A stretch of DNA of 45,074 bases from a phage, in assembly GCA_028473545.1 (NCBI GenBank), contig GCA_028473545.1_4546.1, one strand, 5' to 3'. The notes under the pieces were generated by a model. The model ran no database searches and was not told the origin of the DNA. It worked only from the letters and a program-made list of their open reading frames with translations. The position numbers and the translations under genes were made by a program. Position 1 is the first letter of the stretch. Each line of letters begins with the position of its first letter. This document shows, in pieces, positions 4,062 through 41,197 of the stretch.

Positions 4062-4074
4062 GGAGACTGAGAAA

Positions 4075-6392: not shown

Positions 6393-6394
6393 GC

Positions 6395-6433: not shown

Positions 6434-6455
6434 CAACGAGAAGGAGTAATACACT

Positions 6456-6542: not shown

Positions 6543-6708
6543 GTTAATCCGCCTGATGGCGCGGGATGAACACGTGAAAGTAACATTCTATGAAGGCGGC
6601 AAGTGCTGCCGAGTGGAGTGCTGCGACCGTGGCGTTAAAATGCAATTCGAAGGATACACGGACACTATTGTTGATATTCTTCGCGACCTGGGGACGATCC
6701 GCGGCTGA
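6535..6708 (+). CDS. Small Cys-containing hypothetical protein (57 aa)
   Basis: ATG overlaps the upstream stop (ATGGCTGA); gaggtg RBS; contains CC..CC pairs. Confidence 0.3.
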   Translation: MAELIRLMARDEHVKVTFYEGGKCCRVECCDRGVKMQFEGYTDTIVDILRDLGTIRG

Positions 6709-6755
6709 GGCCGTGGTATATTGTCCCCGGACCCATAATCAGGAAGTAAATTAAT

Positions 6756-7898: not shown

Positions 7899-8107
7899 TT
7901 AGACAAGTATTCATGAGCACGCAGGCCACCTGCCTGAAAGAGCTACGCAAACAACTCGAAGGCTTGCGCCGATTCGAACGAACGGCAGCGGCAATCGGCA
8001 TGTCTATCAGTGAGCGGATCGAGATACTATCGCAGATACGCTACACAGAAGGCGCTATAAGCGAAGTAGAAAGCATGTTGACCAGATACTACGGTCGCGC
8101 CGTTTAA
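7895..8107 (+). CDS. Hypothetical protein
   Basis: 70-aa ORF with ATGA overlap to the upstream gene. Confidence 0.4.
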   Translation: MIRQVFMSTQATCLKELRKQLEGLRRFERTAAAIGMSISERIEILSQIRYTEGAISEVESMLTRYYGRAV

Positions 8108-8112
8108 TCCTC

Positions 8113-8141
8113 CCAGCCCGCCGATTTGGTGGGCTTTTTTG
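8113..8141 (+). terminator. Rho-independent-type terminator
   Basis: agcccgcc..ggtgggct stem (one G-U pair) followed by tttttt. Confidence 0.4.
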
Positions 8142-8144
8142 TGC

Positions 8145-8154
8145 CTGTTATAAT
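8145..8154 (+). promoter_or_regulatory. Extended -10 promoter element upstream of the terminase genes
   Basis: TGtTATAAT at about 8145-8154; weak -35 (TTGGTG). Confidence 0.3.
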
Positions 8155-11692: not shown

Positions 11693-12779
11693 TCAACATA
11701 TGGCGGATCGCATGATTCGCCGTCACATCTTCACCCAGCGCCTGAGCAATGACCAGGCGCGGCGGGTGTTGGCTATGTGGGAGAAGTTCCGACCCACGTT
11801 ACTTGGCAAGCTGACCGAGTTACTTGATGGCAAAAAGTCCATGAATAACAAGGCACTGACCACACTGTTAACGCAAATAGACAAAACCGTCAAAACGGAA
11901 CTGCGCACCGAGTTTAAGGCGCTGGCTGAAAGCCTTCAGGAGTTTGCCGACACCGAGGCTGATTATCTTGCCGATACATTAACGGCAGCGATCCAGCCTG
12001 CGGTAGCCGTACCGGCTGTTGAGGTTGTTGGCGTAGTGACTGGCGCGCAGATTGCGGCCACGGCTATGAAAAACCCGTTCCAGGGAAACACCATGATGCA
12101 ATGGCCTGATTCACTTTCTGAGTGGACCAGGACGCAGATCGGGAATCAGGTGCGCGCTGGATTCATCCAGGGCAAGCCGACTATGGAAATTATCGCGGAC
12201 GTAAAGCGCGCTCTCGGCGGTCGTAGCGCGCAAGCTATCTCAAGTGTTGTTAAGTCCGCAGTAAACCACTATGCGGCGACCGCCCGCGAGTTAATGGTGA
12301 AAGCTAATGACGAAATTCTCGAAGGTCGCCAATGGTTGGCTACATTGGATACGCACACATCACCAATGTGCCAACTACGCGATCGCCTGTTTTATCCTGT
12401 TGACGTCACTCCCGACACCAAAGGAAAGCGCGGCGGGAAAGAGGTGGCTGGATCACAATATGGCGCTGGTCCGGGCAAGCTACATTATTGCTGCCGTTCG
12501 ACGGAGACGTGGAAAGTTAAAGGCATGGAAGATTGGCCCAGTGGTAAGCGTCCGGCACTGAAGGCTGACGCGGGTCGATTGCTGAGTGAGCAGGTCGACG
12601 CGCAGACTGATTTCTTCTCATGGGTGCAGCGCCAGCCGCGCCATATTCTGGAGGAATTATATGGGGTGCAGCGCGCAGACCAGATTATGCGCGGCGTGAA
12701 AGTGCCTAAGATGTTCACCGATACCGGCGAACTAATGACTATTGCACAGCTTAAAAACCGGGGGTTATGGCGTGATTAA
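11676..12779 (+). CDS. Head morphogenesis protein (Mu gpF / SPP1 gp7-like minor head protein)
   Basis: 367-aa ORF overlapping the portal 3' end; position and size typical; product by synteny. Confidence 0.55.
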   Translation: MARTINQHMADRMIRRHIFTQRLSNDQARRVLAMWEKFRPTLLGKLTELLDGKKSMNNKALTTLLTQIDKTVKTELRTEFKALAESLQEFADTEADYLADTLTAAIQPAVAVPAVEVVGVVTGAQIAATAMKNPFQGNTMMQWPDSLSEWTRTQIGNQVRAGFIQGKPTMEIIADVKRALGGRSAQAISSVVKSAVNHYAATARELMVKANDEILEGRQWLATLDTHTSPMCQLRDRLFYPVDVTPDTKGKRGGKEVAGSQYGAGPGKLHYCCRSTETWKVKGMEDWPSGKRPALKADAGRLLSEQVDAQTDFFSWVQRQPRHILEELYGVQRADQIMRGVKVPKMFTDTGELMTIAQLKNRGLWRD

Positions 12780-13080
12780 ATATGCGGCGATCGGACTAGT
12801 TATCGGTCTGGCGGTTGGATTCTGGCAGGGTGATTCCTACCGCACTGGCGTTGTGGCGCAAGCGGCGCAAGAAGCGCAAGCGAAAGCCCAACGGCAGCAA
12901 ACTAAGGTTGTTGAGGGGTCGGTGAAGGCTGAGCAAGCCCGCGACGTGGAATACCGGACTATCACGAAAGAGGTTGTAAAATATGTTACGCGTCCTAACC
13001 GTCCTGATTGTAGTTTTGATGCTGAGCGCGTGCGGATCAAGCAAAGCGCCATCGACGCCGCTAACCGAGTCGGTCTATAG
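12742..13080 (+). CDS. i-spanin-like protein (N-terminal TM helix plus coiled-coil); start may be GTG at 12772
   Basis: Hydrophobic AAIGLVIGLAVGFW then Q/A/K-rich helical region; 3' end overlapped by a lipoprotein ORF in another frame. Confidence 0.4.
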   Translation: MHSLKTGGYGVIKYAAIGLVIGLAVGFWQGDSYRTGVVAQAAQEAQAKAQRQQTKVVEGSVKAEQARDVEYRTITKEVVKYVTRPNRPDCSFDAERVRIKQSAIDAANRVGL

Positions 13081-13213
13081 ACCGCCTTGCACCTTTGAGA
13101 ATGCATCGGCAGATCCAGACGAAGACTTGCTGGTTGATGTTAAAAATATGGAATGCGGGGCTAAGCTAAGGGCGCAAGTGCTGGAGTTGCAGAAAATAAT
13201 TCGGGGGCCGTGA
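12983..13213 (+). CDS. o-spanin-like lipoprotein
   Basis: 76 aa; signal peptide with lipobox LSAC; Pro/Cys-containing mature part; starts inside the preceding ORF in the +1 frame (Rz/Rz1-like overlap). Confidence 0.45.
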   Translation: MLRVLTVLIVVLMLSACGSSKAPSTPLTESVYRPPCTFENASADPDEDLLVDVKNMECGAKLRAQVLELQKIIRGP

Positions 13214-13226
13214 TGGCCCCTTTTTG
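13200..13226 (+). terminator. Rho-independent terminator at a convergent gene junction
   Basis: gggggcc..ggcccc stem followed by ttttt; lies between the plus-strand lipoprotein gene and the minus-strand island. Confidence 0.45.
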
Positions 13227-13230
13227 TTAA

Positions 13231-13746
13231 CTACAAACGCATCGGCATGATAACTAAAAAGGCACCTCCTTTGAACAGCACGCGTGTTGCCTTGTCTACT
13301 CCCTGAAATTCCAGTTTTAATCCCTCAAACTTACGGTCGAACAATTTAGCAATTTTGCAGGCGTCGGATAGGTATGCCCCGTTAAACCCGATAGCCTCCA
13401 CTTTATTGCTGATGAAAGACGTAACTCTTCTCCAGTCTGGAAATAATAGCCCGTCTACAATCTCGATGGGTATGGTAGCTATTAATACGTCTTTACTATC
13501 GAAGAACGCGGCGGAGGTGCCGTCTATGTTGCAGTATTCGAATTTAGTAGGTAAGCGGCTTTTAATTGATACTATTTTACTTTCACCTTCTGGTACAACC
13601 GCAGACCCGCAGAACAAACGGTGACCGTCTGTAGCCACGATGTATCCTTTCTCGTCGAAAAATACACCATTTAGGAAGTATCGGACGTCATTAGTTGCGG
13701 CGCATATCGTAGCGGCTTTAAGATCGGCGTAGTTAACTTTAATCAT
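13231..13746 (-). CDS. Truncated DnaN (beta sliding clamp) homologue, about 171 aa
   Basis: Start at MIKVNYADLK with gaggaa RBS; DVRYFLNGVFF..VATDGHRLF, DGLLFPDWRRV, EAIGFNGAYLSD and C-terminal VIMPMRL match conserved DnaN segments recalled from E. coli (VRYYLNGMLFE..VATDGHRLA, DGRFPDYRRV, EIGFNVSYVLD, VVMPMRL); far shorter than the 366-aa clamp. Confidence 0.6.
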   Translation of the reverse strand: MIKVNYADLKAATICAATNDVRYFLNGVFFDEKGYIVATDGHRLFCGSAVVPEGESKIVSIKSRLPTKFEYCNIDGTSAAFFDSKDVLIATIPIEIVDGLLFPDWRRVTSFISNKVEAIGFNGAYLSDACKIAKLFDRKFEGLKLEFQGVDKATRVLFKGGAFLVIMPMRL

Positions 13747-13803
13747 TTTAATTTCCTCGTGGTTATGTAGACGATAATTCGGGGCCATTACAGCCCCCTT
13801 TTG

Positions 13804-20942: not shown

Positions 20943-23585
20943 GCAGATCAAGCAGCAGGCATCACGCTAAAGGCGGATGTTGCACAAATCAGAACGGCGA
21001 ATACGGTGCTGGACTCATTCGCGCAGAAGTCCGAAAACACCGAAAACAAGGTCAAGAAATTAAACGACACCCTCGGCAACTCAAAAAAGGTGACGAGTGA
21101 CGCCGCGGGCGGAATGGGGAAGCTGGCAACTGAATCGCAGCGGGCCGCCGATGGCATGACGAAGCAGGAGCGACTTGCCAACCGCTTAGGCATGTCGACC
21201 AAAAACCTGGGCTTCGCATCGCGTAACGCCGCATTTCAGTTACAAGATATCGCGGTCACGCTCGAGATGGGTATGCCGGTGCACCGCGTCATGATTCAGC
21301 AGCTACCGCAGTTAACCGGGGCATTCGGTGGACTGGGTAACACGCTGCGTTATGTTGCTGGCTTTCTCGGTCCGGTAGGGATCGGCCTTGCTGCGGTAAC
21401 GGCAACGCTAGGCGTAGGCGTGGCTATTACGTCCCGCGCAGAAAACCAGGTAGCGGCGCTGAATAAGACGCTGGCGCTATCTGGTAACATCTCGGGCCTC
21501 ACCGCTAACCAGATCCTGGTGCTGTCGGAGAACGCCGAACGAATGGGCGGTTCATTCAGCAAGACGCGTGACACAATTCAGGCGCTGGCGGCGGCAGGTG
21601 TGAAAGCGGGTGCTGACTTCGGCGCGCTGGCGAAAGTAGTGAACGACTTCGCGAAGGTGTCTAATCAGCCGATCGCCGACGTGGTGGAGTCCATCTCCAA
21701 ATTGTCCAACGACCCGGTGGGCGGCTTGCGCGCACTGGCGGACAAGTATCACGTCGTTACCGAGGCGCAGATCCAGCAGGTGCAGTCACTGGTTACGACG
21801 GGTCGCGAAACCGAAGCGGTGGCGCTGGCGAACAAAACAGCCGCGGCGTCGTTCACCAGCATGACCAACGAGATCAAGTCCAACATGGGTACGCTTGAGC
21901 GGTCGATGAACGTCGTCACATCGGCAGCTAAATCTATGTGGGATGCCATCCTGGATGTGGGCCGCGCGCAGTCATCGAATGAGTCCGAGATGAAAGCGCG
22001 TGAGTCATTGCAGCGCATGACCACGGCTTACTATGCTGAGATGAAAGCGGTAAACGCTGCCGGTGGGGTAATGACCGACGCGCAGAAAGCACGTATTAAC
22101 ATGCTTTATAGCGAACTGGTCGCACAGGAAAAAGTAGTAGCGTCGCTCACCCTGCGTAACCGTGCCGAGCGCGACAACGCCAGCGCTGCGGACAAATCAG
22201 CGAAGGCGAACGAGGAGGCCAACCGCACCGCCCGTGACCGCGCCGCGTTCGAGAAGGAATTTGCCACCAACGCGAAGAAGCGCGCCGACGAGATCGCCCG
22301 CCTCAATTTACTGAATAAGCGCGGTGTGATTAACGAGAAAGAACTAGCCGAGGCGGTGAAGCAGGTCAACGAGCGCTACAAAGACCCCGCACCGAAAAAG
22401 GCGGCGGCAATTCGCGTCGATGCCGGTGTTAAAATGCTGGAGGTCGCGCGGAGCGAACTGGCACAGCTTAAGGAGTCCGGCAAGCAGATCGAAGCCAATG
22501 CCACAACGCAGACCCGCACGCAGCGCGCACAGGCCGCGTTGAATAAGCTGGTCGCGGATAATGAGCAAATGGTCGCAGCAAGCAAGGAACGCACACTAAC
22601 GGCAGCAGAAAAGCAGCAAATGGCAGAGTTCGAGGCGGTTAAAGCGGTACGCGAGCAGATCGTCGAAGAAGCCAAATTGCTGGACGCGAAAGAGAAGCAG
22701 ATCAAGGCACACGCCCAGGTCGAGGCATTCATCAAGAACCAGAACGCCGAGCTACGGGCCACCGCTGCGGGCTATGCGCTTTCCACTCGCGAAGCGGCTA
22801 ACCTGCGCGAAGAATTACAGCTAATTGACCGCCTTCAGCGTGTCGGCGCTAACGATACTGATATTGACCGGGCGGTGTCTAAGCTGCGCGAAGTGCAGGA
22901 AGCACAGACCGGTGCTAACGCTTCGTTGTGGGATGGCTTTAGCCGCGGGCTTAAGGATAGCGTGGATGAAATGGGGAACGGCTACACGCAGATGACGTCA
23001 CTCACAAAATTCACGTTCGGCGCTATGCAGGACACGATGAATACGTTTTTCGAGACGGGCAAGCTGAACGCAAAGGATATGGTTAAGTCCATCCTGAGCG
23101 AATTAATCAAGCTGGCTACCTCGCAGGCGTTCAAATCCATCGTTAGCGCTTTCGGCGGTGACGGCGGCAAAAACGGATTGTTCGGCGCTATCTTCTCGGG
23201 CCTCACTAAGAACGCAGACGGCGGAGCGTACGCAGGAGGCAATCTCGCGGCCTATTCTGGTCAAGTGGTAAGCCAGCCCACCTTTTTCAGTTATGGCGTT
23301 CAGGCGTTCGCTAAGGGCGCTGGGTTGATGGGTGAGGCTGGACCCGAGGCTATCATGCCACTGAAGCGCGGGCCGGATGGGAAACTGGGCGTTGCCGCTG
23401 CCGGTGCTGGTGGGGGTGGGATGATTGTAACAACCAACGTGAACATGGGTACCGGTAAGACGGACACCAGTGTGAGCGGACCGGACCCACGCACCGCGCA
23501 GGCGTTCGGAAAGCAAATCACCGAGTCGGTCAAGGCCGAGATCGTGAAAGCGACGAAACCGGGTGGAGTACTTTACAAACGATGA
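20940..23585 (+). CDS. Tape measure protein
   Basis: Start at MADQAAG with aagggga RBS; 881 aa; long helical protein; Gly-rich C-terminal region; position before the M/L/K/I/J-like genes. Confidence 0.8.
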   Translation: MADQAAGITLKADVAQIRTANTVLDSFAQKSENTENKVKKLNDTLGNSKKVTSDAAGGMGKLATESQRAADGMTKQERLANRLGMSTKNLGFASRNAAFQLQDIAVTLEMGMPVHRVMIQQLPQLTGAFGGLGNTLRYVAGFLGPVGIGLAAVTATLGVGVAITSRAENQVAALNKTLALSGNISGLTANQILVLSENAERMGGSFSKTRDTIQALAAAGVKAGADFGALAKVVNDFAKVSNQPIADVVESISKLSNDPVGGLRALADKYHVVTEAQIQQVQSLVTTGRETEAVALANKTAAASFTSMTNEIKSNMGTLERSMNVVTSAAKSMWDAILDVGRAQSSNESEMKARESLQRMTTAYYAEMKAVNAAGGVMTDAQKARINMLYSELVAQEKVVASLTLRNRAERDNASAADKSAKANEEANRTARDRAAFEKEFATNAKKRADEIARLNLLNKRGVINEKELAEAVKQVNERYKDPAPKKAAAIRVDAGVKMLEVARSELAQLKESGKQIEANATTQTRTQRAQAALNKLVADNEQMVAASKERTLTAAEKQQMAEFEAVKAVREQIVEEAKLLDAKEKQIKAHAQVEAFIKNQNAELRATAAGYALSTREAANLREELQLIDRLQRVGANDTDIDRAVSKLREVQEAQTGANASLWDGFSRGLKDSVDEMGNGYTQMTSLTKFTFGAMQDTMNTFFETGKLNAKDMVKSILSELIKLATSQAFKSIVSAFGGDGGKNGLFGAIFSGLTKNADGGAYAGGNLAAYSGQVVSQPTFFSYGVQAFAKGAGLMGEAGPEAIMPLKRGPDGKLGVAAAGAGGGGMIVTTNVNMGTGKTDTSVSGPDPRTAQAFGKQITESVKAEIVKATKPGGVLYKR

Positions 23586-25749: not shown

Positions 25750-26357
25750 CCACATTTAAATTGTACGGCGTCTTAGGACGTCGTTTTGGTAAAGTGCATA
25801 AGCTGGAATGTTTCACACCTGGCGAGGGTATCACCGGCCTATGCGTGAAGTTACCAGGCTTACAGGACTTTCTAATGTCGGCCCACCTGGGAAACATGAT
25901 GTTTAAGGTGCGCAAGGGTAATCACACAATGACCGGCTACGACGAGTTAGGGGAGTTCCACGGCGACCGCGTAGTTACCATCGCGCCGGTTATGACGGGT
26001 GCTAAAAGCGGACTGGGCCAATTGCTGGCTGGCGTAGCTATCGTGGTGGCGTCGTTCTACACCGGCGGGCTTGCCGCTGCCGCTTTCGGTGCTTCCGCGG
26101 CGACCGCTGCCGCTATCGGAACGGCGACGTTTTCGTTCGGTATGTCGCTTGCGCTTGGCGGTGCTATGCAACTGCTGTCACCGCAACCGAAAGGATTGCA
26201 GACACGGCAGGACGTGGATAACAAGGCGTCGTATGCGTTCGGCGGGCCGGTAAACACTACCGCGCAAGGTACAGCACTTGGTGTATTATGGGGCGAGCGT
26301 GAGATCGGCGGCGCTATTATTTCAGCCGGAATTGTAACCGAGGATTTGAACGAATGA
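25740..26357 (+). CDS. Tail assembly protein (lambda gpI-like)
   Basis: 205 aa; Gly/Ala-rich hydrophobic segment; position between the K-like and J-like genes. Confidence 0.6.
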   Translation: MAMTTFKLYGVLGRRFGKVHKLECFTPGEGITGLCVKLPGLQDFLMSAHLGNMMFKVRKGNHTMTGYDELGEFHGDRVVTIAPVMTGAKSGLGQLLAGVAIVVASFYTGGLAAAAFGASAATAAAIGTATFSFGMSLALGGAMQLLSPQPKGLQTRQDVDNKASYAFGGPVNTTAQGTALGVLWGEREIGGAIISAGIVTEDLNE

Positions 26358-29300
26358 CGATTGTATACGACGTCACGGGTCATAAAGGCGGCGGTGGCAA
26401 ACAGCACACCCCACAGGAGACGCCTGATAGCCTGCATTCGCTGGCTAAAATCCGCATCTTGCTCGCACTGGGCGAGGGCGAATTTGAAGGCATTCCCGAC
26501 CCTAACGAATTACGGCAGCGTGTATACCTGGACGGCACACCGATCCAGAACGCCGACCTGTCGGATAACTTCCCCGGCGCGCGTGTGGAGTTCCGCCCCG
26601 GCACGCAGCACCAGGATGTGATTCACGGTTTTTCAGCGGTGGAAAGCGAGCAAACAGTAGGCGTAAAACTGGAACAGGGCCAGCCGTGGGTCCGCCAGAT
26701 TTCGGATACCAGTCTGGATGCGGTGCGCATTCGAATCGGTATTCCGGCCCTGTACACCAACGAAGATAATGGCGACCTGGTGGGCGGGCGCATCGACTAT
26801 AAAATTGTTGTGTATACAGACAATGCTGATCCGCGGGAGTTTACATTCGCTGCCGTTGGTAAAACAATGTCGCTGTATGAGCGCGATCACCGCATCGAAT
26901 TACCGCCGAACGTGAATACCGGCTGGCGCGTGGAGGTGCACCGCACAACGGCAGACTCCACATCGGCAAAAGTGGTCAACGATATTCAGGTACAATCCAT
27001 TACTGAGATTATCGACGCCCGCCTGCGATACCCGCTAACCGCGCTGTTGTTCGTGGAGTTCGATGCTAAGGCGTTCCAGAACATCCCGCGTGTGTCCATC
27101 AAGTGCAAAGGCCGCAAAGTGCTGGTGCCGAACAACTACGACCCGATTAATCATACCTATTCTGGTGACTGGGACGGCACATTTAAACGCGCCTGGACGG
27201 ATAACCCTGCGTGGCACTGGTACGATATTTGTATTACTGAGCGCTTCGGCCTCGGTCGTCGTGTCAAGCCACAAATGCTAAACCGTTACGCACTCTACCA
27301 GATTTCGCAGCGCTGCGATCAGATGGTCAGTGACGGCAACGGCGGTCAGGAAATCCGATTTAAGAATGATATGTACATTCAGTCGCAGACCGACGCCTGG
27401 ACCGTGCTGAAGGATTTAGCGGCTATCTTTGCGGGCATGACCTGGTGGGGCAACCAGATGTTGAATATCGTCAGTGACCAGCCTGTCGCAGCGGTATCGC
27501 ATACTATCACCAACGCCTCGGTCATTGATGGTCGATTCGACTACGCATCGGGAAGCCAGAAAACTCGGTATTCCACGTTCTCGGTAGCCTACGGCAACCC
27601 GAAGAACCACTATGATGACGCCATCGCAACGGGTCAACGTGTCGAACTGGTGCGCCGCCATAAGATTAACCGCCTTGATATCACGGCGATCGGCTGTACG
27701 CGAGAATCTGAAGCGCAACGCCGCGGGCACTGGGCGCTAATCTCCAACCAGCTTGACCAGCAAGTCAGCTTTAAGGTTGGCATGGAGGGGTTATTCTTTA
27801 TTCCGGGGAGCGTAGTCGCGATCGCAGATACTAACATTTCTGGCGGCTTCGAGACACGCGGCGGACGCCTGTTGTCAGATCCAGGCACGCGCACCGTGCT
27901 GAACACGGACAGCGAAATCACGTTCCGCCCTGGTGATAAATTCCTGGTGCGCACCGATAGCGGTAATGTGGAGACTCGCGAGATTGCCAGCGTCAACGGC
28001 AACCAGGTCACGCTAAAAACCGCACTGGACTCCGACCCGATTCCCGATCAGCCGTTTTGCGTTGATGGCGATGATATCCAGTTGCAGAAGTTCCGCATCA
28101 CAGACCTGGAATATGACGACGCTACCAGCACTTTTTCGGTGCGCGGGATTGAGTACAACGATAGCAAATATGATGCCGTTGATAATGGCGCGCGTCTTGA
28201 TCCGGGTATCTTCACTCAAGTGCCGGACGGCGTGATGAAGGGGCCAGAATCCGTTACTATCACCCCGTCGCAGATTTCATCGCAAGGCCAGCTAATCACC
28301 AACGTAGATATTGTTTTTCCGCCGGTGAAGGATGCCGTTGTGTACGAAATCCAGTGGCGACGTACCAGCTTGCAGAATCTGGAAGTACAGTGGGGCAACG
28401 ACTGGGTTAACATCCCCCGCACGGCGTCGAACGGCGCGCACATCCCGAACGTGTTTTCTGGTAACTACCAGGCACGCGTCCGCGCTATCGGTATGGGCGA
28501 GATTTCATCCCCGTGGGTGTCATCCGAAATCACGCCGGTCGAGGGCCGTCTTGGCGGGCTAAACGCGCCAATCATTACCAACGCGATTTCGGGCCTTCAT
28601 CAAATTTTGTGGAAGTGGAATCACAACAACGCCGCGACGGATATTTCGTATACCGAGCTTGAAGTGCGCAAGCTGGGTGAGACTGAATGGAAATTCTTGA
28701 CCAACGTCCCATATCCGGGGTCGGACTATGCGCAAACGTCGCTGGAATTCGGGATCTACCAGCAGTTGCGCGCACGCGTAGCGGATAAAATCGGCAACCT
28801 GTCGGACTGGTCAGACCCGTTTGACGGTCAGGTGAGTGACAAAGTTGACGAGTACATGCAGGGGCTTGATGACGAGTTCTTGACTTCCGAGGACGGTAAA
28901 CACTTCCAGGAAGCAATCGACACCATTCCACAAGGCATTTACGAGGCCATGCTCACCGACGCGCAGCAGTTGTTTAACGCCCGCTCCGAGTATCAAGGGA
29001 TTTATGCGGAAATCAAGGTGGCGTACAACGTTGCGGTGGACGCAAACGAGGCCGTAGCGCAACTGGAAACGCTGATCGGCACGCGCCTTGACGATGCGGA
29101 AGCGTCAATCCACACGTTGCAGACTGCGCAAAGCACGCACGAACAAGCGTTCGCCCAGTATCAACAAACTGTTGCCGCTAAGTTCGGTCAGCAGTCCGCA
29201 GCGATCGAGCAGAAGATGACGTCTTCGTTTAACCATGCTGGCGGTAGCGCCACCTACAGCCTTAAAGCTGGCGTGACGTATAACGGGACTTACTATGATG

Positions 29301-29704
29301 CCGGTATGCAGCTTTCCGTTGTGGCGGAAGGTGGCGCGGTTAAATCTCGCATCGCGTTCAAGGCGGACCAGTTCTACATCATGCACCCGTCGAATGGGTC
29401 GCTTTCGTCCGCGTTTATCGTCGACGGCGGTCAGGTGTACATTGACACGGCGCGCATCAAGAATGCGTCCATCAACTTCGCACAGATCACGGACACGCTG
29501 CAATCCAATAACTGGAATCCGGGTAACAGCGGCTGGCGAATCGCGAAGGATGGCGGGGCGGAGTTCAACAACGTAACGGTACGCGGCAACTTGTTCGCGA
29601 CTACGGGTAATTTCGGATTCTCCGGCGGGTCCGTTACGATCGACGCAACGGGCGTCAACGTGCCATTACCTGGAGGGGGAAGGGTTAAAGTCGGGACGTG
29701 GTAA
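26354..29704 (+). CDS. Tail tip / central fiber protein (lambda gpJ-like)
   Basis: 1116 aa; ATGA overlap with the I-like gene; size and position. Confidence 0.8.
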   Translation: MTIVYDVTGHKGGGGKQHTPQETPDSLHSLAKIRILLALGEGEFEGIPDPNELRQRVYLDGTPIQNADLSDNFPGARVEFRPGTQHQDVIHGFSAVESEQTVGVKLEQGQPWVRQISDTSLDAVRIRIGIPALYTNEDNGDLVGGRIDYKIVVYTDNADPREFTFAAVGKTMSLYERDHRIELPPNVNTGWRVEVHRTTADSTSAKVVNDIQVQSITEIIDARLRYPLTALLFVEFDAKAFQNIPRVSIKCKGRKVLVPNNYDPINHTYSGDWDGTFKRAWTDNPAWHWYDICITERFGLGRRVKPQMLNRYALYQISQRCDQMVSDGNGGQEIRFKNDMYIQSQTDAWTVLKDLAAIFAGMTWWGNQMLNIVSDQPVAAVSHTITNASVIDGRFDYASGSQKTRYSTFSVAYGNPKNHYDDAIATGQRVELVRRHKINRLDITAIGCTRESEAQRRGHWALISNQLDQQVSFKVGMEGLFFIPGSVVAIADTNISGGFETRGGRLLSDPGTRTVLNTDSEITFRPGDKFLVRTDSGNVETREIASVNGNQVTLKTALDSDPIPDQPFCVDGDDIQLQKFRITDLEYDDATSTFSVRGIEYNDSKYDAVDNGARLDPGIFTQVPDGVMKGPESVTITPSQISSQGQLITNVDIVFPPVKDAVVYEIQWRRTSLQNLEVQWGNDWVNIPRTASNGAHIPNVFSGNYQARVRAIGMGEISSPWVSSEITPVEGRLGGLNAPIITNAISGLHQILWKWNHNNAATDISYTELEVRKLGETEWKFLTNVPYPGSDYAQTSLEFGIYQQLRARVADKIGNLSDWSDPFDGQVSDKVDEYMQGLDDEFLTSEDGKHFQEAIDTIPQGIYEAMLTDAQQLFNARSEYQGIYAEIKVAYNVAVDANEAVAQLETLIGTRLDDAEASIHTLQTAQSTHEQAFAQYQQTVAAKFGQQSAAIEQKMTSSFNHAGGSATYSLKAGVTYNGTYYDAGMQLSVVAEGGAVKSRIAFKADQFYIMHPSNGSLSSAFIVDGGQVYIDTARIKNASINFAQITDTLQSNNWNPGNSGWRIAKDGGAEFNNVTVRGNLFATTGNFGFSGGSVTIDATGVNVPLPGGGRVKVGTW

Positions 29705-29708
29705 ATGA

Positions 29709-29735
29709 GAAGGGGCCATCCGGCCCCTTTTTTAA
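29709..29735. terminator. Bidirectional rho-independent terminator
   Basis: ggggcc-atcc-ggcccc hairpin flanked by tttttt (plus) and T-rich sequence on the minus side; at a convergent gene junction; near-identical copy at 32533-32560. Confidence 0.5.
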
Positions 29736-30706
29736 TACATGTTAGGTATGACGAGTAACGGGGTTGGGACGGCTATGTTGCGGTTAGGCATCTGGAATTG
29801 CTGCCGTGAGTAGTTACCGATTACGCGATTACGCGCCGCACTAACCACGTTGCCCGCCATGCGTATCCCGTTCATTCGAACGTGGTTGTAGCCGCTGTTG
29901 TTCTCAATGAGCGCGCCGGTATATGAAAGCTGTACGAGGCTATTACCGATATTCTGACCGCCGGTGCCGATATTAATTACCGAATTGAGCACAAACGGCT
30001 TGTTAACGGTCGAGAACGTGACCTGCCCCTGGTTGTTCGTCATGGTGATACCAGTCCCCGGTGATGGAGGCGTATTGTTGAAGATAACCAGATCCAAGTC
30101 CACTTCGGCCCCGACGTCATCAATCCCGCCATAAGACGAATTGCGGACGATGATACTACTACCATCGAAGCCTACCGATACGTTGCCATTATCCCAGCGC
30201 GCGAACGGGATACCGCCCACAGGCAAAGGCATACTACCGTTCACGTGCACGCGCTGCGCGTAGCGGCAGGTCATTAACCGGGACACGTTGGAAATCGCGG
30301 TGAAGTCTGTCGAGTTCGCCACCAGTAAGCCCGCATTGCGTGACCCCACCGGCAGCACTTCCATAATTATACCAGCCCATTGCGGGAGGCCGCTGTATGC
30401 GTTATGCGCGTCCGCGCCTCGAAGGATAATTCCACTATCCCCGTTGCGCTGTACCGACGTCACGTAGAACGGGTCGGGGAGAACCAGCGTCTGGTCGAAC
30501 ACCTCAAGCACTTCTACCGGGCGCGTGAGTGCAACGACAAGGTCCGACCCTGGTGTTAGCGGGGTATTAATGGTCAGCGTCTTGTCGGACTGGCAGCGCT
30601 GATCAAACGTAGTGCAGTATGACGGAGCGCGCAAACCGGCAGTTATCTCCATAATCGGTCGTCCGTCGTTGTAGTCGATGAGTATTCCAGCGCCCATTAT
30701 TACCAC
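29732..30706 (-). CDS. Putative receptor-binding / tail accessory protein (GTG start)
   Basis: 324-aa antisense ORF between the J-like and tail-fiber genes; Gly/Asn/Ser/Thr-rich; start codon abuts the upstream lipoprotein stop. Confidence 0.45.
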   Translation of the reverse strand: MVIMGAGILIDYNDGRPIMEITAGLRAPSYCTTFDQRCQSDKTLTINTPLTPGSDLVVALTRPVEVLEVFDQTLVLPDPFYVTSVQRNGDSGIILRGADAHNAYSGLPQWAGIIMEVLPVGSRNAGLLVANSTDFTAISNVSRLMTCRYAQRVHVNGSMPLPVGGIPFARWDNGNVSVGFDGSSIIVRNSSYGGIDDVGAEVDLDLVIFNNTPPSPGTGITMTNNQGQVTFSTVNKPFVLNSVINIGTGGQNIGNSLVQLSYTGALIENNSGYNHVRMNGIRMAGNVVSAARNRVIGNYSRQQFQMPNRNIAVPTPLLVIPNMY

Positions 30707-30921
30707 TCCCGTGATTTAACAGATACAGTGCCTGAGAAATTGCCGTCGCTATCGGCAGATAGGCCCGTGAAGCGCATGTCCACGGCCCCGGCAGGGACTT
30801 TTTGCCCGTCAACGTAGCGTAACATGCAGCTACCGTAAGCAACCGTAATGCAATCGCCGTTGTTGCGTTCTACAGCACAACCGGACAAAAGGACCGCACA
30901 AATCATAATTAAAGTTTTCAT
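30700..30921 (-). CDS. Small lipoprotein (candidate Llp/Cor-like superinfection exclusion protein)
   Basis: Start at MKTLIMICAVLLSGC with aggag RBS; lipobox LSGC; 73 aa; adjacent to the putative receptor-binding gene. Confidence 0.5.
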   Translation of the reverse strand: MKTLIMICAVLLSGCAVERNNGDCITVAYGSCMLRYVDGQKVPAGAVDMRFTGLSADSDGNFSGTVSVKSREW

Positions 30922-30975
30922 GTTATCATCTCCTATATTTGGTTGAGTTTTAGTATTGCACCGCTCAATCAAGAA

Positions 30976-30985
30976 TGCAACCAAT
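30976..30985 (+). promoter_or_regulatory. TGCAACCAAT box upstream of the tail fiber gene
   Basis: TGCAACCAATTTTAAGAGG directly precedes the ATG at 31003; lies in the divergent region between lipoprotein and fiber genes. Confidence 0.3.
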
Positions 30986-31002
30986 TTTAAGAGGATTCAG
31001 CT

Positions 31003-32529
31003 ATGGCAGCGGGTACTATCTTATTAACCAATAACAGCCGGTCAGTAACGGGGACCGGTACGACGTTTTCGGCGTTCAAAGCCGGTGATTTCCTTTCTGT
31101 CGTAGTGGGGCAAGTCCCCTACACTATCGCGATTGAATCTATCGAAAGCAACACCGGGCTTACTTTGGTGCTGCCGTTTGACGGCCCAACGGCATCCGGC
31201 ATCGCATGGGATGGCGTTGCGCGCGATACCATGTCGCTGGCAACGATGGGCGTAACAGTCCAGGCACAGAAAGCACTGCGTATGCTTATTGCGGACGAGA
31301 ACAACTGGCGTGCAATCTTCGGCGACGCTGAAGAAATCACAGTTACGTTACCGAACGGCACAGTGATGCAGGGTATGTCGTGGGGCTACCTGTCGCAGCT
31401 AATGAAGCAGATCGACCCGGTGGAAATGCTCAACCTGCAACAACAAGCCGCCGCATCTGAGGTCGCAGCGAAAGGATACCGCGACGAGGCCGAAGGCTTC
31501 AAGAACGATACTAATACCATCAAGACGCAAACCAACCAGATTAAGACTGATACGCAGGCGATCCACGACGCCACCAATACGATCAAGACGCAAACCGACC
31601 AGATTAAGACCGATACGCAGGCCATCAAGGACCAGACCAACCAGATTAAGACTGACACTGGCGTTATTCGAGATCAGGCCAACACGGCGAAGACTGACGC
31701 ACAAGCGGCCCGAGATGCAGCGCAGGGATACCGCGACGAAGCCGAAGGCTTCAAAAACTCAATCGACCCCACTAAGTTCATGCAGAAGTCGCAGAACCTG
31801 GCGGACGTTGCCGACAAGTACACCGCGCGCAACATTCTTGGGGTGGGCGATGACAGTTACGTTAAACACGCAACATTACGCCTGAACGGTGGCGAATCAT
31901 TAACATTCAATGAAGTGGAGGCTAACGGCTTAATTCTATCAAACGCCTCGATGGGAATCGACAATTGGGTAGGCTTCACCATGCATAAATGGTACGCCGA
32001 CTGGACACGCGCAGGAATTGTGCGTGCGGGTGACTCCCACTTGTCAGACTACCGCATCCACGTGTGGAAGAATGGGGATACTGAGGCGCTATTCCGCTTC
32101 CTGCCGGACGGGCGTCTGATTCAGGGTAACGGCGGCAACCCATCGTCGGCGGAGTTTCAGAAAGCACCGCTATCAGACCGGGACGTGAAGAAAGAAATCC
32201 AATACACGGACGGCGCGGAAAGTTACAACCGAGTACGGCAATGGCTACCAGCAATGTTTAAGTATAAGGAGTCGGACGTACAGCGTTACGGCCTTATCGC
32301 GCAGGACCTGGCCATGATTGACCCGGAATATGTGCACTTGCTGCCAGGACACGGAATCTACGAGGACGTTGTTGTTGGCGTGGACGAGGAAGGGAACGAG
32401 ATTGTCGAGCAAAAGGAGATCGGATACACCGACGATGTGCTGTCGCTTGACAGTAACGTGCTGTTGATGGATCTATGCGCCGCCTTCGTTCACCTGTTGC
32501 AGAAAGTAGAAAAGCTGGAAGGTAAGTAA
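31003..32529 (+). CDS. Tail fiber protein with C-terminal S74-type intramolecular chaperone domain
   Basis: 508 aa; internal repeats TNTIKTQTNQIKTDTQAI; C-terminal segment GLIAQDLAMIDPEYVH resembles the endosialidase-chaperone domain. Confidence 0.65.
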   Translation: MAAGTILLTNNSRSVTGTGTTFSAFKAGDFLSVVVGQVPYTIAIESIESNTGLTLVLPFDGPTASGIAWDGVARDTMSLATMGVTVQAQKALRMLIADENNWRAIFGDAEEITVTLPNGTVMQGMSWGYLSQLMKQIDPVEMLNLQQQAAASEVAAKGYRDEAEGFKNDTNTIKTQTNQIKTDTQAIHDATNTIKTQTDQIKTDTQAIKDQTNQIKTDTGVIRDQANTAKTDAQAARDAAQGYRDEAEGFKNSIDPTKFMQKSQNLADVADKYTARNILGVGDDSYVKHATLRLNGGESLTFNEVEANGLILSNASMGIDNWVGFTMHKWYADWTRAGIVRAGDSHLSDYRIHVWKNGDTEALFRFLPDGRLIQGNGGNPSSAEFQKAPLSDRDVKKEIQYTDGAESYNRVRQWLPAMFKYKESDVQRYGLIAQDLAMIDPEYVHLLPGHGIYEDVVVGVDEEGNEIVEQKEIGYTDDVLSLDSNVLLMDLCAAFVHLLQKVEKLEGK

Positions 32530-32532
32530 TGA

Positions 32533-32560
32533 GAAGGGGCCATACGGCCCCTTTTTTAGT
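32533..32560. terminator. Bidirectional rho-independent terminator
   Basis: gagaaggggccatacggccccttttttag; near-identical to the terminator at 29709-29735. Confidence 0.5.
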
Positions 32561-38713: not shown

Positions 38714-38901
38714 TTGGTTTGCAACTCCACGTTACGCAGACGTAGATCTACCGGTATGTCAGATCTACCGGTTAGCGCCAGCGCCAGGTTTTCAGGCGTG
38801 ACAAGTGCCGTGATGGTCTTGCCACGTTCCAGTCTAAGGACGATGCGAATCTCGTCATCGTCCGTCGCGCCAGCGCGCATTATGCTTAATTCTGCTTTCA
38901 T
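38710..38901 (-). CDS. Hypothetical small protein
   Basis: ATG at 38901, 4 nt downstream of the polymerase stop on the minus strand; 63 aa. Confidence 0.35.
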   Translation of the reverse strand: MKAELSIMRAGATDDDEIRIVLRLERGKTITALVTPENLALALTGRSDIPVDLRLRNVELQTK

Positions 38902-38905
38902 AATC

Positions 38906-41197
38906 TTACTTCCTGTACCGATACATAATGTCGCCTTCGGCGGCAAGTGGGAAACCTTTCGCCCATATAGGCAGGTCACACATCAGCGCGCAAAGCTCCT
39001 CGGTCGTGTAATCGTCGGTGTCCGGCACTTCGGTGATCAATTCATCGTGCACTGACAGGACGATTTCATAGCCCGCAGCTTCAACACCAGGCATGGACCA
39101 TGCGAGAATATCGCGGCACAACGCCTGTACGATGTTCTCCGTAAGTTTGCCGCCGTAGGTGTACTGGAATCCCCACTGGCGCGTCGTCTGATTCTCGCCC
39201 TGGTATTTGATGCGGGTACTGGTGCGCTTCTTGCCGGTGTCTTCGTCAATCTCGGTAGTGACAGACAGCGCGATTCCGGGGTAGCTCATGATTCGCCCTG
39301 ACGGCAACTCAACCTTCAGCCACCAGCCCGCGGCGTTCGGGTCGTCGCGTTCCTCGTCAAAGGTGGGGTCGTGCTTCGCCTTCGTGCGCACAATCTTGAG
39401 CGCTTTCTTGCCATCCGGGCGAACGTTCGCGCCAGCCCAGTATGCCTTACCTGGATTGCGTATCGCACATAACACCGCCTCCTCAAGCTCGGCCCAAAAG
39501 GCTACGGTCTTCGGGTGAGATTCACGCCACATACGTTTGATCGCGTCGCAGGTCAACCACACGTTTTTAGGCAGTATGTAAGTCGGGCGCTCGTCTTTCT
39601 TGCCGGGCTTCGGCGGGCGCTTCGCTTCGTTGATGCGGGCAAACTCATAACCGCGTTTAGCCGCCGCCCAAATATGATCGGGGAATGTTCCCTTCATGAC
39701 GTCAGCCATTGCGTACAGGTCGAGGCCCAGGTTTTTAGCAAACTGCAAGAACGCCGCGACGCCGCCACCATAGCCCAGTCCCAATTCACACGCCTTACCA
39801 ATCTGGCGTAGGTCTTTGCGGTTGGCTTTGATGTAGTCCGGGTCAAGGCCAAACATCTTACCGGCAGTTTCACAATAGATATCGCGTCCGGCCTTAAACA
39901 CCATAAGCGCGGTTTTCTCGCCAGCGATCCAGGCAAGGCCACGCCCTTCCACGTTGGAGTAGTCCGCTACAACAAACTTCTTGCCCTTAGCCGGGATAAT
40001 GCACCCGCGAACGGTCGAGGCGGTTAGCTTCGATATGTCATACGCCCAGTGCGCGGTCCCGCGTAACAGGGAGTTGATGCCGTTGGTGAGCATGTGCGAC
40101 CGTACCCAAAACGAGACGTCGCTCTCACCTTCGCGGCGCTTAATCTTCCCTTCGTGGTCATCACTGTACTCGCCACGTGCCAGGTTTTGAGGCTGAAAGC
40201 CTTTACCGGCCCAGCGTAGTGTGCGCTTTGCCCCACCATACTGAAGACAACCACGGCGGCGACCATCGGAAGAAAGGCCATTGACGAGCGGATTGTATTT
40301 AGTCGATGCCGTTGATGACGCGCCGAGGCGCATTTCAATAAGCACTTTGCCCTCGTCGGGGAAGTCTGGATCTTCCAGCAAATCATTCAGCGTGGATTTC
40401 TGCGCGTTGTGAATGGTGAACGCCGGGGCAATATCACGCAGGATTGGCAGGAAGTCATTACCGGTCAGTTTACCACCGAACAGTTCCCAGGCTTCTTCCT
40501 TCAATTCTTCTTTGTGCACCTGCACCGCCTTGATCGCGGCGTTCGCCAGGTCAACGTCCACATAGAAGCCACGGTCGTTAATCAACTGGTCGATACGCAG
40601 GATTTCATCTTCCTTCGGTGAGTTGCCCCAGTCCGGTATTCGCCAGTAGACTTCACGCATTGCGATAATATCCAGCGCGGCATAGCGCAGGAATTTAGCC
40701 CATTCTTCAGGGTGAGTCTCGCGCGTGTAGCGGCGGATTTTGTAGGTCTTAGGGGTCGGCTTACAAAATCGCTTAATCAGCGCCTTGCCTGCCTTATCCT
40801 TCGCGTGCTCTGCGTCAACGCCCAGCACCTGGCATTGCATATCGAGGCCACCCGGCAGCGCGTGACGAAAGGCCATAATCATCGTATCTTCGATCTGGCT
40901 TACCGGCAGGTCGATGCCCCACTTTTCACGGATAACCAGGCGGTCAAACAGGAGGCCGTTAGCCATCACTATTTTTGCTTTCTTGCGGGTTACCTGGCGT
41001 AGCGCCTTGCGCAGTTCACGCGGCATCGTGGGGGATTCAGTGGCGTCCCATGTCTGCACGCGGCCCTCGTCGATGGCGTAGGTGCAAATCATAATCTCGG
41101 TGGATGGGTGTTCTGCATAGGCATACGCACCTGCTTTCTTCAGGTCCACCCCGCTATATGTCTCGGTGTCAAGAAACAGGCGTTCGAAGTATTTCAT
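38906..41197 (-). CDS. DNA polymerase, family A (Pol I-like) with 3'-5' exonuclease domain
   Basis: 763 aa; exo motif FLDTETYSG; polymerase motifs DYSNVEGRGLAWIAGE, RQIGKACELGLGYGGG, VLSVHDELITEV. Confidence 0.85.
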   Translation of the reverse strand: MKYFERLFLDTETYSGVDLKKAGAYAYAEHPSTEIMICTYAIDEGRVQTWDATESPTMPRELRKALRQVTRKKAKIVMANGLLFDRLVIREKWGIDLPVSQIEDTMIMAFRHALPGGLDMQCQVLGVDAEHAKDKAGKALIKRFCKPTPKTYKIRRYTRETHPEEWAKFLRYAALDIIAMREVYWRIPDWGNSPKEDEILRIDQLINDRGFYVDVDLANAAIKAVQVHKEELKEEAWELFGGKLTGNDFLPILRDIAPAFTIHNAQKSTLNDLLEDPDFPDEGKVLIEMRLGASSTASTKYNPLVNGLSSDGRRRGCLQYGGAKRTLRWAGKGFQPQNLARGEYSDDHEGKIKRREGESDVSFWVRSHMLTNGINSLLRGTAHWAYDISKLTASTVRGCIIPAKGKKFVVADYSNVEGRGLAWIAGEKTALMVFKAGRDIYCETAGKMFGLDPDYIKANRKDLRQIGKACELGLGYGGGVAAFLQFAKNLGLDLYAMADVMKGTFPDHIWAAAKRGYEFARINEAKRPPKPGKKDERPTYILPKNVWLTCDAIKRMWRESHPKTVAFWAELEEAVLCAIRNPGKAYWAGANVRPDGKKALKIVRTKAKHDPTFDEERDDPNAAGWWLKVELPSGRIMSYPGIALSVTTEIDEDTGKKRTSTRIKYQGENQTTRQWGFQYTYGGKLTENIVQALCRDILAWSMPGVEAAGYEIVLSVHDELITEVPDTDDYTTEELCALMCDLPIWAKGFPLAAEGDIMYRYRK

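What the first reader, a model, noticed from the sequence alone, without database searches (positions are those of the whole stretch)
29732..30921. Antisense pair: candidate receptor-binding protein plus lipoprotein (Llp/Cor-like superinfection exclusion candidate)
Between the J-like gene and the tail fiber, two minus-strand genes encode a 324-aa Gly/Asn/Ser/Thr-rich protein and a 73-aa lipoprotein (lipobox LSGC). In T5-like and T1-like phages a small lipoprotein next to the receptor-binding gene blocks the phage's own outer-membrane receptor. The arrangement here fits that logic, and expression in the antisense direction would allow early or independent expression.
Basis: inference. Interest (0 to 1): 0.5.

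Follow-up and report, generated by a model that had tools for sequence, protein, structure and literature searches.

The report
Known LptD receptor-binding and exclusion gene pair

Summary
Two minus-strand genes lie between the J-like gene and the lateral tail fibre gene: a 321-aa protein (29732-30697; 324 aa only from an upstream GTG) and a 73-aa lipoprotein (30700-30921, lipobox LSGC).

The window is a Dhillonvirus genome, 99.9% identical at this locus to Escherichia phage vB_EcoS_WF5505.

- **Large protein:** Pfam DUF6453, 85% identical over its full length to the receptor-binding protein (RBP) of phage Oekolampad. [quoted passage not shown]
- **Lipoprotein:** Pfam PF24052, 97% identical to Oekolampad's superinfection-exclusion (SE) lipoprotein and 39% to Rtp45. 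Rtp45 was solved on the periplasmic face of LptDE (PDB 9RPS). Both disulfide cysteines are conserved.

The RBP-plus-exclusion logic is therefore supported. The receptor is LptD, not FhuA. The lipoprotein is an analogue of Llp/Cor, not a homologue; its weak Cor hit is the signal peptide only. Expression timing is untested.

Small additions from this work:
- The cassette also includes the last ~45-63 codons of J.
- The promoter region and signal peptide are identical in LptD-, FhuA- and BtuB-type Dhillonvirus cassettes.

Novelty: already known. Interest is low.

The parts
29514..29704 (+). 3' end of the J-like gene (last ~63 codons). The last ~45 aa (…RGNLFATTGNFGFSGGSVTIDATGVNVPLPGGGRVKVGTW) form a tail that varies with RBP type. 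It is the inferred docking site for the separate RBP.
   Evidence: DNA homology to the FhuA-type Dhillonvirus JLBYU60 stops at 29513, and to TheodorHerzl at 29588. The J tail follows RBP type and not taxon: window vs JLBYU60 (same genus) is 31% in the tail and 83% in the body; TheodorHerzl vs Rtp (different families) is 80% in the tail and 39% in the body. A 2026 preprint also flags the GpJ C-terminal tip as specificity-associated. The docking role is inferred.
29707..29733 (.). GC-rich hairpin (GGGGCC-ATCC-GGCCCC) between the convergent J and RBP genes. It has a T6 run on the + strand and a weaker T-rich tail on the - strand, so it is a likely bidirectional intrinsic terminator. It overlaps the RBP stop codon.
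   Evidence: Folds at -25 kcal/mol on the + strand (z -5.7) and -16.3 kcal/mol on the - strand (z -3.2). A near-identical copy lies at 32528-32558, after the tail fibre gene (family D3). Others annotated bidirectional terminators at the same junction in phages Chapo and SA126VB. The consensus scan did not list it.
29732..30697 (-). Receptor-binding protein of the central tail fibre: 321 aa, Pfam DUF6453, orthologue of RBP-Oeko and Rtp44. Predicted to bind the extracellular face of LptDE.
   Evidence: Pfam DUF6453 at 2.7e-118. PDB 9rpt_C (also 9rpw, 9rqi) at E 3.2e-183, covering residues 1-321. 85% identity to Oekolampad bas18_0025, 35% to TheodorHerzl, 34% to Rtp44. Gln299, the one RBP-Oeko contact residue named in the paper's main text, is conserved. 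No transmembrane segment (maximum KD19 of 1.23). dN/dS 0.03-0.09.
30700..30921 (-). Superinfection-exclusion lipoprotein precursor: 73 aa, Pfam PF24052, Rtp45 family. Signal peptide M1-G14 (30921-30880), lipobox LSGC, acylated Cys15 (30879-30877), Ala at +2. Mature protein is 59 aa.
   Evidence: Pfam Phage_lipoprotein at 1e-20 and phrog_4281 at 2e-32. PDB 9rps_D (Rtp45) at E 6e-8. 97% identity to Oekolampad bas18_0026, 45% to TheodorHerzl, 39% to Rtp45. Cys24 and Cys32 align with the Rtp45 Cys30-Cys38 disulfide. dN/dS 0.02-0.09. Outer-membrane sorting is inferred from the E. coli +2 rule (established knowledge).
30922..31002 (.). 81-bp divergent intergenic region between the lipoprotein gene and the tail fibre gene. 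It holds the SD AGGAG (30934-30930) and a candidate extended -10 promoter on the minus strand: TTGCAT 30980-30975, 17-nt spacer, TGc at 30960-30958, AATACT 30957-30952.
   Evidence: Read by eye. The region is nearly invariant across LptD-, FhuA- and BtuB-type Dhillonviruses. The consensus scan did not call a promoter here; its one minus-strand site overlaps the start codon. The promoter is therefore inferred only.
32528..32558 (.). Second copy of the same terminator element (AATGAGAAGGGGCCATACGGCCCCTTTTTTA), at the convergent junction after the lateral tail fibre gene. With the first copy it brackets RBP + SE + lateral fibre.
   Evidence: (family D3). WF5505 carries an annotated terminator at the equivalent position.

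Best explanation
This is the LptD-type host-recognition cassette of a Dhillonvirus.

The 321-aa DUF6453 protein is the terminal receptor-binding protein. It is made as a separate polypeptide. It presumably docks on the cassette-specific C-terminal tail of the J-like tip protein. [quoted passage not shown]

The 73-aa gene just upstream encodes a lipoprotein. It is exported, acylated at Cys15 and sorted to the inner leaflet of the outer membrane. There it binds the periplasmic side of LptDE and pushes loop EL4 outward. The RBP of this phage and of related LptD-dependent phages then cannot bind. The result would be superinfection exclusion and protection of progeny from adsorbing to debris.

The two genes form one minus-strand unit with its own terminator, separate from the plus-strand tail operon.

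Shown here: gene structure, homology, conserved cysteines, cassette boundaries, purifying selection.
Shown by others on homologues: RBP-LptDE binding and Rtp45-LptDE binding.
Inferred: docking on the J tail, the exclusion phenotype for this allele, the promoter and the expression timing.
For: - Full-length match to solved RBP-Oeko (PDB 9RPT/9RPW/9RQI): E 3.2e-183, 85% identity.
- RBP-Oeko binds LptDE in vitro. LptD point mutants D352Y and Y671N abolish both binding and infection.
- The lipoprotein is 97% identical to SE-Oeko and 39% identical to Rtp45, with the disulfide cysteines conserved. Rtp45 is solved on the periplasmic face of LptDE.
- Pfam DUF6453 plus PF24052.
- The locus occupies the 'bona fide RBP locus' after gpJ. 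Its alleles match receptor use without exception in the BASEL phages, and close relatives Bas83 and Bas85 are predicted LptD users.
- The J tail co-varies with RBP family.
- dN/dS is 0.03-0.09 for both genes.
- A terminator hairpin ends the unit.
- Lysis genes and spanin-like genes lie elsewhere in the window.
Against: - No experiment exists on this allele. 15% of RBP residues differ from RBP-Oeko, and I could not map them onto the interface because the contact table is a figure that is not held as text.
- In the papers I read, the exclusion role of Rtp45 and SE-Oeko rests on a structure, not on a plating or adsorption phenotype. SE-Oeko itself could not be expressed.
- No promoter passed the consensus scan.
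- Virion incorporation of the DUF6453 protein was not documented in anything I read.
- Some relatives carry the RBP without an adjacent lipoprotein (Seuratvirus SA126VB, Salmonella phage SPN3UB), so the pairing is not obligatory.
Confidence: 0.88

Rival explanations
1. The lipoprotein is a true member of the Cor/Llp family and blocks FhuA, as in T1, phi80 and T5, and the phage uses FhuA.
For: Full-length lipoprotein gives a weak PHROG hit to 'Cor superinfection exclusion protein' (phrog_1119, E 6e-4, residues 1-30). FhuA-type sister phages carry a Cor gene in exactly this slot.
Against: - The Cor hit is the signal peptide only. The mature sequence hits only phrog_4281, the Rtp45 family.
- BLASTP against the JLBYU60 Cor aligns only residues 1-16.
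- Against T5 Llp, only the signal peptide aligns, E 0.02.
- phmmer against the PDB, which holds FhuA-Llp as 8A60, returns no Llp chain at E up to 10.
- The partner RBP is the LptD-binding type and not the FhuA-type two-gene set.
Confidence: 0.02
2. The DUF6453 protein is not the RBP. It is a membrane protein or moron (as PHROG and RefSeq label it) or a tail assembly factor, and the C-terminus of J itself binds the receptor, as in lambda.
For: phrog_1265 is labelled 'membrane protein; moron'. Several GenBank records say 'membrane protein'. Lewis et al. 2023 treated J as the Dhillonvirus RBP. The J tail co-varies with the cassette.
Against: - No hydrophobic segment and no signal peptide.
- The 85%-identical orthologue binds LptDE directly. 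It is seen inserted into the LptD lumen at 2.8 A, and resistance mutations abolish the binding.
- Co-variation of the J tail fits an adaptor role equally well.
Confidence: 0.04
3. The small lipoprotein is a lysis protein (o- or u-spanin), as annotated in phage Chapo.
For: It is a small outer-membrane lipoprotein. The homologue in vB_EcoS_Chapo is annotated 'u-spanin'.
Against: - It is far from the lysis genes: holins at 5169-5692, lysozyme at 5685-6173, and spanin-like genes at 12772-13210.
- It has no C-terminal transmembrane segment.
- The homologue Rtp45 is a 6-kDa protein bound specifically to LptDE-LptM.
Confidence: 0.02
4. The cassette is of LptD-type ancestry, but this allele has drifted to a different LptD variant or a second receptor. 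Its host range and cross-exclusion would then differ from Oekolampad's.
For: 47 of 321 RBP residues differ from RBP-Oeko, in clusters (about 29-38, 83-100, 237-247, 283-289). The SE differs at only 2 of 73 residues. dS differs between the two genes, which suggests recombination inside the cassette. Bas01 shows that dual-receptor use (NupG plus LptD) exists in this group.
Against: All tested carriers of this RBP family use LptD. Gln299 and the invariant family core are conserved. dN/dS is low throughout.
Confidence: 0.04

Closest known systems
LptDE-targeting RBP / SE lipoprotein module of small siphophages: Oekolampad (Bas18) RBP-Oeko and SE-Oeko, Rtp Rtp44/Rtp45 (Dunbar et al., PNAS 2025, PMC12685063; locus defined by Maffei et al. 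2021, PMC8594841)
   Same: - Same genus as Oekolampad, and the same position after gpJ.
- Same order and orientation: lipoprotein then RBP, both antisense to J.
- RBP 85% identical and SE 97% identical to the Oekolampad proteins.
- Same Pfam families.
- Disulfide cysteines and lipobox conserved.
   Different: - An allelic variant only, with 47 RBP substitutions.
- J in this window lacks a 32-aa coiled-coil segment that Oekolampad and WF5505 have.
- Much more distant from the Rtp pair (34% and 39%), which is the pair for which the SE structure exists.
Phage T5 pb5 (oad) and Llp acting on FhuA (van den Berg et al., PNAS 2022, PMC9586334)
   Same: Same logic: a dedicated monomeric RBP for an outer-membrane protein, next to a ~6-kDa periplasm-facing lipoprotein that prevents RBP binding. 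The distal, tail-proximal part of the RBP is disordered in both complexes.
   Different: - No detectable sequence similarity for either protein.
- Different receptor: LptDE, not the TonB-dependent transporter FhuA.
- Steric loop displacement, not long-range allostery.
- In T5, llp and oad are divergent with separate promoters. Here the two genes are co-directional with a 2-nt gap.
Cor lipoprotein and the FhuA-type cassette of T1, phi80, N15 and FhuA-type Dhillonviruses (e.g. JLBYU60 gp25-27)
   Same: It occupies the same genomic slot. In Dhillonvirus it uses the identical upstream region and the identical signal peptide MKTLIMICAVLLSGC.
   Different: - The mature domain is unrelated (phrog_1119 against phrog_4281).
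- In the FhuA type, two RBP-locus genes lie on the J strand and only cor is antisense.
- Different receptor.
Lambda GpJ C-terminal receptor-binding domain (LamB)
   Same: The J homologue forms the central tail tip and carries host specificity at its distal end.
   Different: Here the receptor-binding function sits on a separate polypeptide. J contributes only a short cassette-specific tail.

Membership tests
LptD-binding RBP family (DUF6453; RBP-Oeko / Rtp44) | Full-length sequence homology to a member shown to bind LptDE | tested here: met
   PDB 9rpt_C at E 3.2e-183 over residues 1-321. 85% identity to bas18_0025 and 34% to Rtp44. Pfam DUF6453 at 395 bits against a cut-off of 25.
LptD-binding RBP family (DUF6453; RBP-Oeko / Rtp44) | Encoded in the variable locus directly downstream of the gpJ homologue | tested here: met
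   The gene ends 27 nt after the J stop codon and is convergent with J. Same layout in Oekolampad, TheodorHerzl and Rtp.
LptD-binding RBP family (DUF6453; RBP-Oeko / Rtp44) | Soluble protein without signal peptide or transmembrane segment | tested here: met
   Maximum Kyte-Doolittle 19-residue mean of 1.23. N-terminus is MGAGILIDYNDGRP.
LptD-binding RBP family (DUF6453; RBP-Oeko / Rtp44) | Physical binding to LptDE, and dependence of infection on LptD loops EL4/EL11 | not testable with these tools
   Shown for RBP-Oeko only.
LptD-binding RBP family (DUF6453; RBP-Oeko / Rtp44) | Presence in the virion at the tail tip | not testable with these tools
   No virion proteomics found in the papers read. 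Docking on the J tail is inferred from co-variation.
Rtp45-type SE lipoprotein (Pfam PF24052, phrog_4281) | Family profile match over the mature domain | tested here: met
   PF24052 at 73.9 bits against a cut-off of 27. The mature sequence alone hits phrog_4281 at 6e-25. PDB 9rps_D at 6e-8.
Rtp45-type SE lipoprotein (Pfam PF24052, phrog_4281) | SPase II signal peptide with lipobox Cys, and no Asp at +2 (outer-membrane sorting) | tested here: met
   MKTLIMICAVLLSG|C-A-V, read. Sorting is inferred from the +2 rule.
Rtp45-type SE lipoprotein (Pfam PF24052, phrog_4281) | Two cysteines forming the intramolecular disulfide (Rtp45 Cys30-Cys38) | tested here: met
   Invariant columns C24 and C32 in the four-way alignment. 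The disulfide is described.
Rtp45-type SE lipoprotein (Pfam PF24052, phrog_4281) | Binds periplasmic LptDE and prevents RBP binding or phage adsorption | not testable with these tools
   A structure exists for Rtp45 only. I found no plating phenotype in the papers read.
Cor superinfection exclusion family (phrog_1119) | Homology of the mature lipoprotein domain to Cor | tested here: not met
   The hit is limited to residues 1-30. The mature domain gives no Cor hit. Only 16 signal-peptide residues align with the JLBYU60 Cor, which is itself a full-length phrog_1119 member.
T5 Llp / pb5 system | Sequence homology to Llp (lipoprotein) or pb5 (RBP) | tested here: not met
   BLASTP against Llp aligns the signal peptide only, E 0.02. 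Against pb5 the best E is 0.22. No Llp chain appears among PDB hits at E up to 10.

The most novel reading that the evidence does not exclude
Dhillonviruses may keep a fixed 'socket' for host-range exchange. The promoter region, ribosome-binding site and signal peptide (MKTLIMICAVLLSGC) of the exclusion lipoprotein are identical whether the cassette targets LptD, FhuA or BtuB. Sequences diverge right after the lipobox cysteine on one side and within the last ~45-63 codons of J on the other. One recombination event between these two conserved anchors would then swap J-tail adaptor, RBP and mature exclusion domain together. Phage and exclusion factor would always stay matched to the same receptor. 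I did not see the junction at the lipobox described in the papers I read. If real, it gives exact splice points for retargeting these phages.
Probability: 0.55. Interest if true: 0.3.

Novelty: already known. Interest (0 to 1): 0.15.

Why it matters
LptD is essential and surface-exposed, so phages that use it are of interest for therapy and for 'phage steering'. This window adds one more natural allele of the LptD-binding RBP, 15% diverged from the solved one, paired with an almost unchanged exclusion lipoprotein. That may help in mapping which RBP positions tolerate change. It opens no new question: the function, structure and genomic logic of this gene pair were published in 2021-2025. The practical result here is a correct annotation. 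The genes are labelled 'hypothetical', 'membrane protein' or 'u-spanin' in many GenBank records.

Tried and rejected
- **Promoter and terminator scan.** It found no convincing promoter in the 81-bp upstream region and missed the obvious hairpin at 29707-29733. I folded that hairpin separately and read a candidate extended -10 promoter by eye. The promoter stays an inference.
- **Cor membership.** The weak phrog_1119 hit proved to be signal peptide only. Rejected.
- **Llp/pb5 homology.** None found.
- **NCBIfam.** No family for either protein.
- **Interface mapping.** I looked for the RBP-Oeko/LptD contact list in the PNAS supplement to map the 47 substitutions. The table is an image and is not held as text.
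- **Structure prediction and fold search.** Not run. 85% identity over the full length to an experimentally solved chain makes them redundant. The authors also report that predictions of the small lipoprotein are unreliable.
- **Large protein-database searches.** Not used, for the same reason.
- **Spanin reading.** Rejected on gene location and absence of a transmembrane segment.

Full report
**What is there**

Between the J-like tail-tip gene (26354-29704, +) and the lateral tail fibre gene (31003-32529, +) lie two minus-strand ORFs.
- The first is 30700-30921, 73 aa, starting MKTLIMICAVLLSGC.
- The second is 29732-30706, 324 aa from a GTG.
- The second more plausibly starts at ATG 30697, giving 321 aa (MGAGILIDY…). 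That ATG has a GGGAG Shine-Dalgarno about 8 nt upstream and lies 2 nt after the lipoprotein stop codon.
- ATG 30697 is also the start annotated in the relatives and the N-terminus of the solved protein.

A GC-rich hairpin at 29707-29733 sits between the convergent J and RBP genes. It folds at -25 kcal/mol on the + strand (z -5.7) and -16.3 kcal/mol on the - strand.

Both genes are under purifying selection, with dN/dS of 0.03-0.09 against five relatives. They are real genes.

**Where the window comes from**

The locus is 99.9% identical to Escherichia phage vB_EcoS_WF5505 and 99.8% to two other Dhillonviruses. 138 phage records match it. The window aligns along its whole length with Dhillonvirus JLBYU60, apart from seven non-homologous segments. 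The largest of these (29514-30874) is this locus.

**What the genes are**

*The 321-aa protein.*
- It is Pfam DUF6453 (E 2.7e-118).
- It matches PDB 9rpt chain C over all 321 residues (E 3.2e-183). That chain is the receptor-binding protein of phage Oekolampad (Bas18, Dhillonvirus).
[quoted passage not shown] 2025, PMC12685063).
- Identity is 85% to the Oekolampad protein, 35% to TheodorHerzl (Bas14) and 34% to Rtp44.
- RBP-Oeko binds LptDE in vitro. LptD point mutants D352Y and Y671N abolish both binding and infection.

*The 73-aa protein.*
- It is Pfam PF24052, 'Phage lipoprotein family'.
- It is 97% identical to the Oekolampad SE lipoprotein bas18_0026 and 39% identical to Rtp45.
- It hits the Rtp45 chain of PDB 9RPS at E 6e-8.
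- Rtp45 sits on the periplasmic side of LptDE, between LptE and LptM. It pushes LptD loop EL4 outward by up to 20 A, which is incompatible with RBP binding.
- The two cysteines of the Rtp45 disulfide are invariant in my alignment (window Cys24 and Cys32).
- The lipobox LSGC is followed by Ala. By the E. coli +2 rule this predicts outer-membrane sorting (established knowledge, inference here).

*The locus.* Maffei et al. [quoted passage not shown] Its alleles match receptor use without exception. Later work confirmed the LptD association and predicted LptD use for Bas83 and Bas85. Those two phages share about 85% DNA identity with the window at this locus.

**How it most likely works**

- The RBP is a separate polypeptide that attaches to the tip of J and binds LptDE.
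- The lipoprotein is made in the infected cell and blocks LptDE from the periplasm. That would prevent superinfection and loss of progeny on cell debris.

The RBP-LptDE and Rtp45-LptDE interactions are shown by others on homologues. For this allele they are inferred from homology. In the papers I read I found no plating or adsorption phenotype for any Rtp45-family lipoprotein, and SE-Oeko could not be expressed. The exclusion step is therefore the weakest link.

The pair must be transcribed independently of the plus-strand tail operon, because it lies on the other strand and has its own terminator. By eye there is a candidate extended -10 promoter: TTGCAT, 17-nt spacer, TGc-AATACT (30980-30952). 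The consensus scan did not call it. Because the virion RBP and the lipoprotein appear co-transcribed, a purely early unit seems unlikely (inference).

**Comparison with Llp and Cor**

The resemblance to T5 Llp/pb5 and to Cor is functional and not homologous.
- The weak Cor hit (phrog_1119, residues 1-30) disappears when only the mature sequence is scanned.
- BLASTP against the true Cor of the FhuA-type Dhillonvirus JLBYU60 aligns only the 16-residue signal peptide.
- T5 Llp and pb5 show no similarity. No Llp chain appears among the PDB hits, although FhuA-Llp is deposited as 8A60.
- T5 also arranges llp and oad divergently. Here the two genes are co-directional.

**What I can add**

1. *Cassette boundaries.* Against JLBYU60 (FhuA type), DNA homology ends at 29513, inside J, and resumes at 30875, just after the lipobox. 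The last 45 aa of J follow RBP type and not taxonomy. Window vs JLBYU60 is 31% in the tail and 83% in the body. TheodorHerzl vs Rtp is 80% in the tail and 39% in the body. This fits an adaptor that travels with the RBP, in line with a 2026 preprint.
2. *A shared 'socket'.* The 81-bp intergenic region and the signal peptide MKTLIMICAVLLSGC are identical in LptD-type (window, Oekolampad), FhuA-type (JLBYU60 cor) and BtuB-type (PTXU06_00037) cassettes. Divergence begins right after the acylated cysteine.
3. *Repeated terminator.* The same 31-nt terminator element occurs after J and after the tail fibre gene. It brackets the whole host-range region.
4. *Mosaic history.* The lipoprotein is far more conserved than the RBP relative to Oekolampad (97% vs 85%). 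dS differs between the two genes, which suggests recombination within the cassette.

**Rivals**

- FhuA/Cor membership is contradicted by sequence.
- The 'membrane protein/moron' label is contradicted by the absence of any hydrophobic segment and by the solved complex.
- The 'u-spanin' label is contradicted by gene location and architecture.
- Drift of this allele to another LptD variant or a second receptor cannot be excluded, but nothing supports it.

**Verdict**

The system is already known and structurally characterised in the same genus, so novelty is 'already known' and interest is low. The most useful by-products are the annotation correction, the socket observation, and the off-window lead that Gordonclarkvirinae podoviruses carry both protein families.

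Noticed in passing
window 30877-31002; L005 (JLBYU60) 22237-22363; L017 (PTXU06) about 12185-12312: The intergenic region, the ribosome-binding site and the signal peptide MKTLIMICAVLLSGC of the exclusion lipoprotein are identical in LptD-, FhuA- (Cor) and BtuB-type Dhillonvirus cassettes. The sequences diverge immediately after the lipobox cysteine. TheodorHerzl's second LptD allele diverges earlier, after codon 5.
   Followed up: partly
window 29704-29734 and 32528-32558: Two direct copies of the same terminator element (AATGAGAAGGGGCCAT[C/A]CGGCCCCTTTTTTA) sit at the two convergent gene junctions that bracket RBP + SE + lateral tail fibre. They may act as recombination anchors for exchange of the whole host-range region.
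   Followed up: partly
window 29181-29212 (inside the J gene): J in this window lacks a 96-nt (32-aa) in-frame segment of its coiled-coil region (…AAKFGEQEAAIQQVQTATADVAGALAEYKTQVAAQ…). WF5505, Oekolampad, TheodorHerzl and JLBYU60 all have it. The deletion lies between two direct repeats. Identity to WF5505 is also lower upstream of this point (97.4%) than downstream (99.7%).
   Followed up: partly
L015 3659-4690 and L016 2474-2800 (Escherichia phage OliverMaurmann_Bas86, a Gordonclarkvirinae podovirus): This ~76-kb podovirus encodes a DUF6453 protein (E 4.5e-25) just after its tail fibre genes. It also encodes a PF24052 Rtp45-family lipoprotein (E 2e-35) about 44 kb away, among small genes. 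Many Gordonclarkvirinae/Kuravirus-like records show the same two hits. This suggests LptD as their terminal receptor, with the exclusion gene placed separately. No paper in the library links these phages to LptD.
   Followed up: partly
L010 (Seuratvirus SA126VB) 1377-2466; L012 (Salmonella phage SPN3UB) 1501-3607: The RBP homologue occurs without an adjacent lipoprotein in SA126VB (75% identity). In SPN3UB (55% identity) it lies on the same strand as J, followed by a fibre with a Peptidase_S74 chaperone. RBP-lipoprotein pairing and antisense orientation are therefore not universal.
   Followed up: partly
hit H150 (Citrobacter phage HCF1, 29341-29442): Only the first 34 residues of the RBP (82% identity) are shared with a protein of this phage. 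This hints that the conserved N-terminus (MGAGILIDYNDGRP…ITAGLR) is a separable module, possibly the tail-attachment part.
   Followed up: no
window 31465-31760 (lateral tail fibre gene): 63/42-nt tandem repeats encode TNxIKTDTQAI-type coiled-coil repeats, flanked by a duplicated 42-nt segment (31465-31506 and 31717-31758). The C-terminal part of the fibre (31758-32526) is non-homologous to JLBYU60 and ends in a Peptidase_S74 intramolecular chaperone.
   Followed up: no
window 3853-4715, 6340-6710, 7895-8148, 13225-13773, 38715-38906: These further segments have no DNA homology to Dhillonvirus JLBYU60. They are variable regions of the genome that I did not examine.
   Followed up: no
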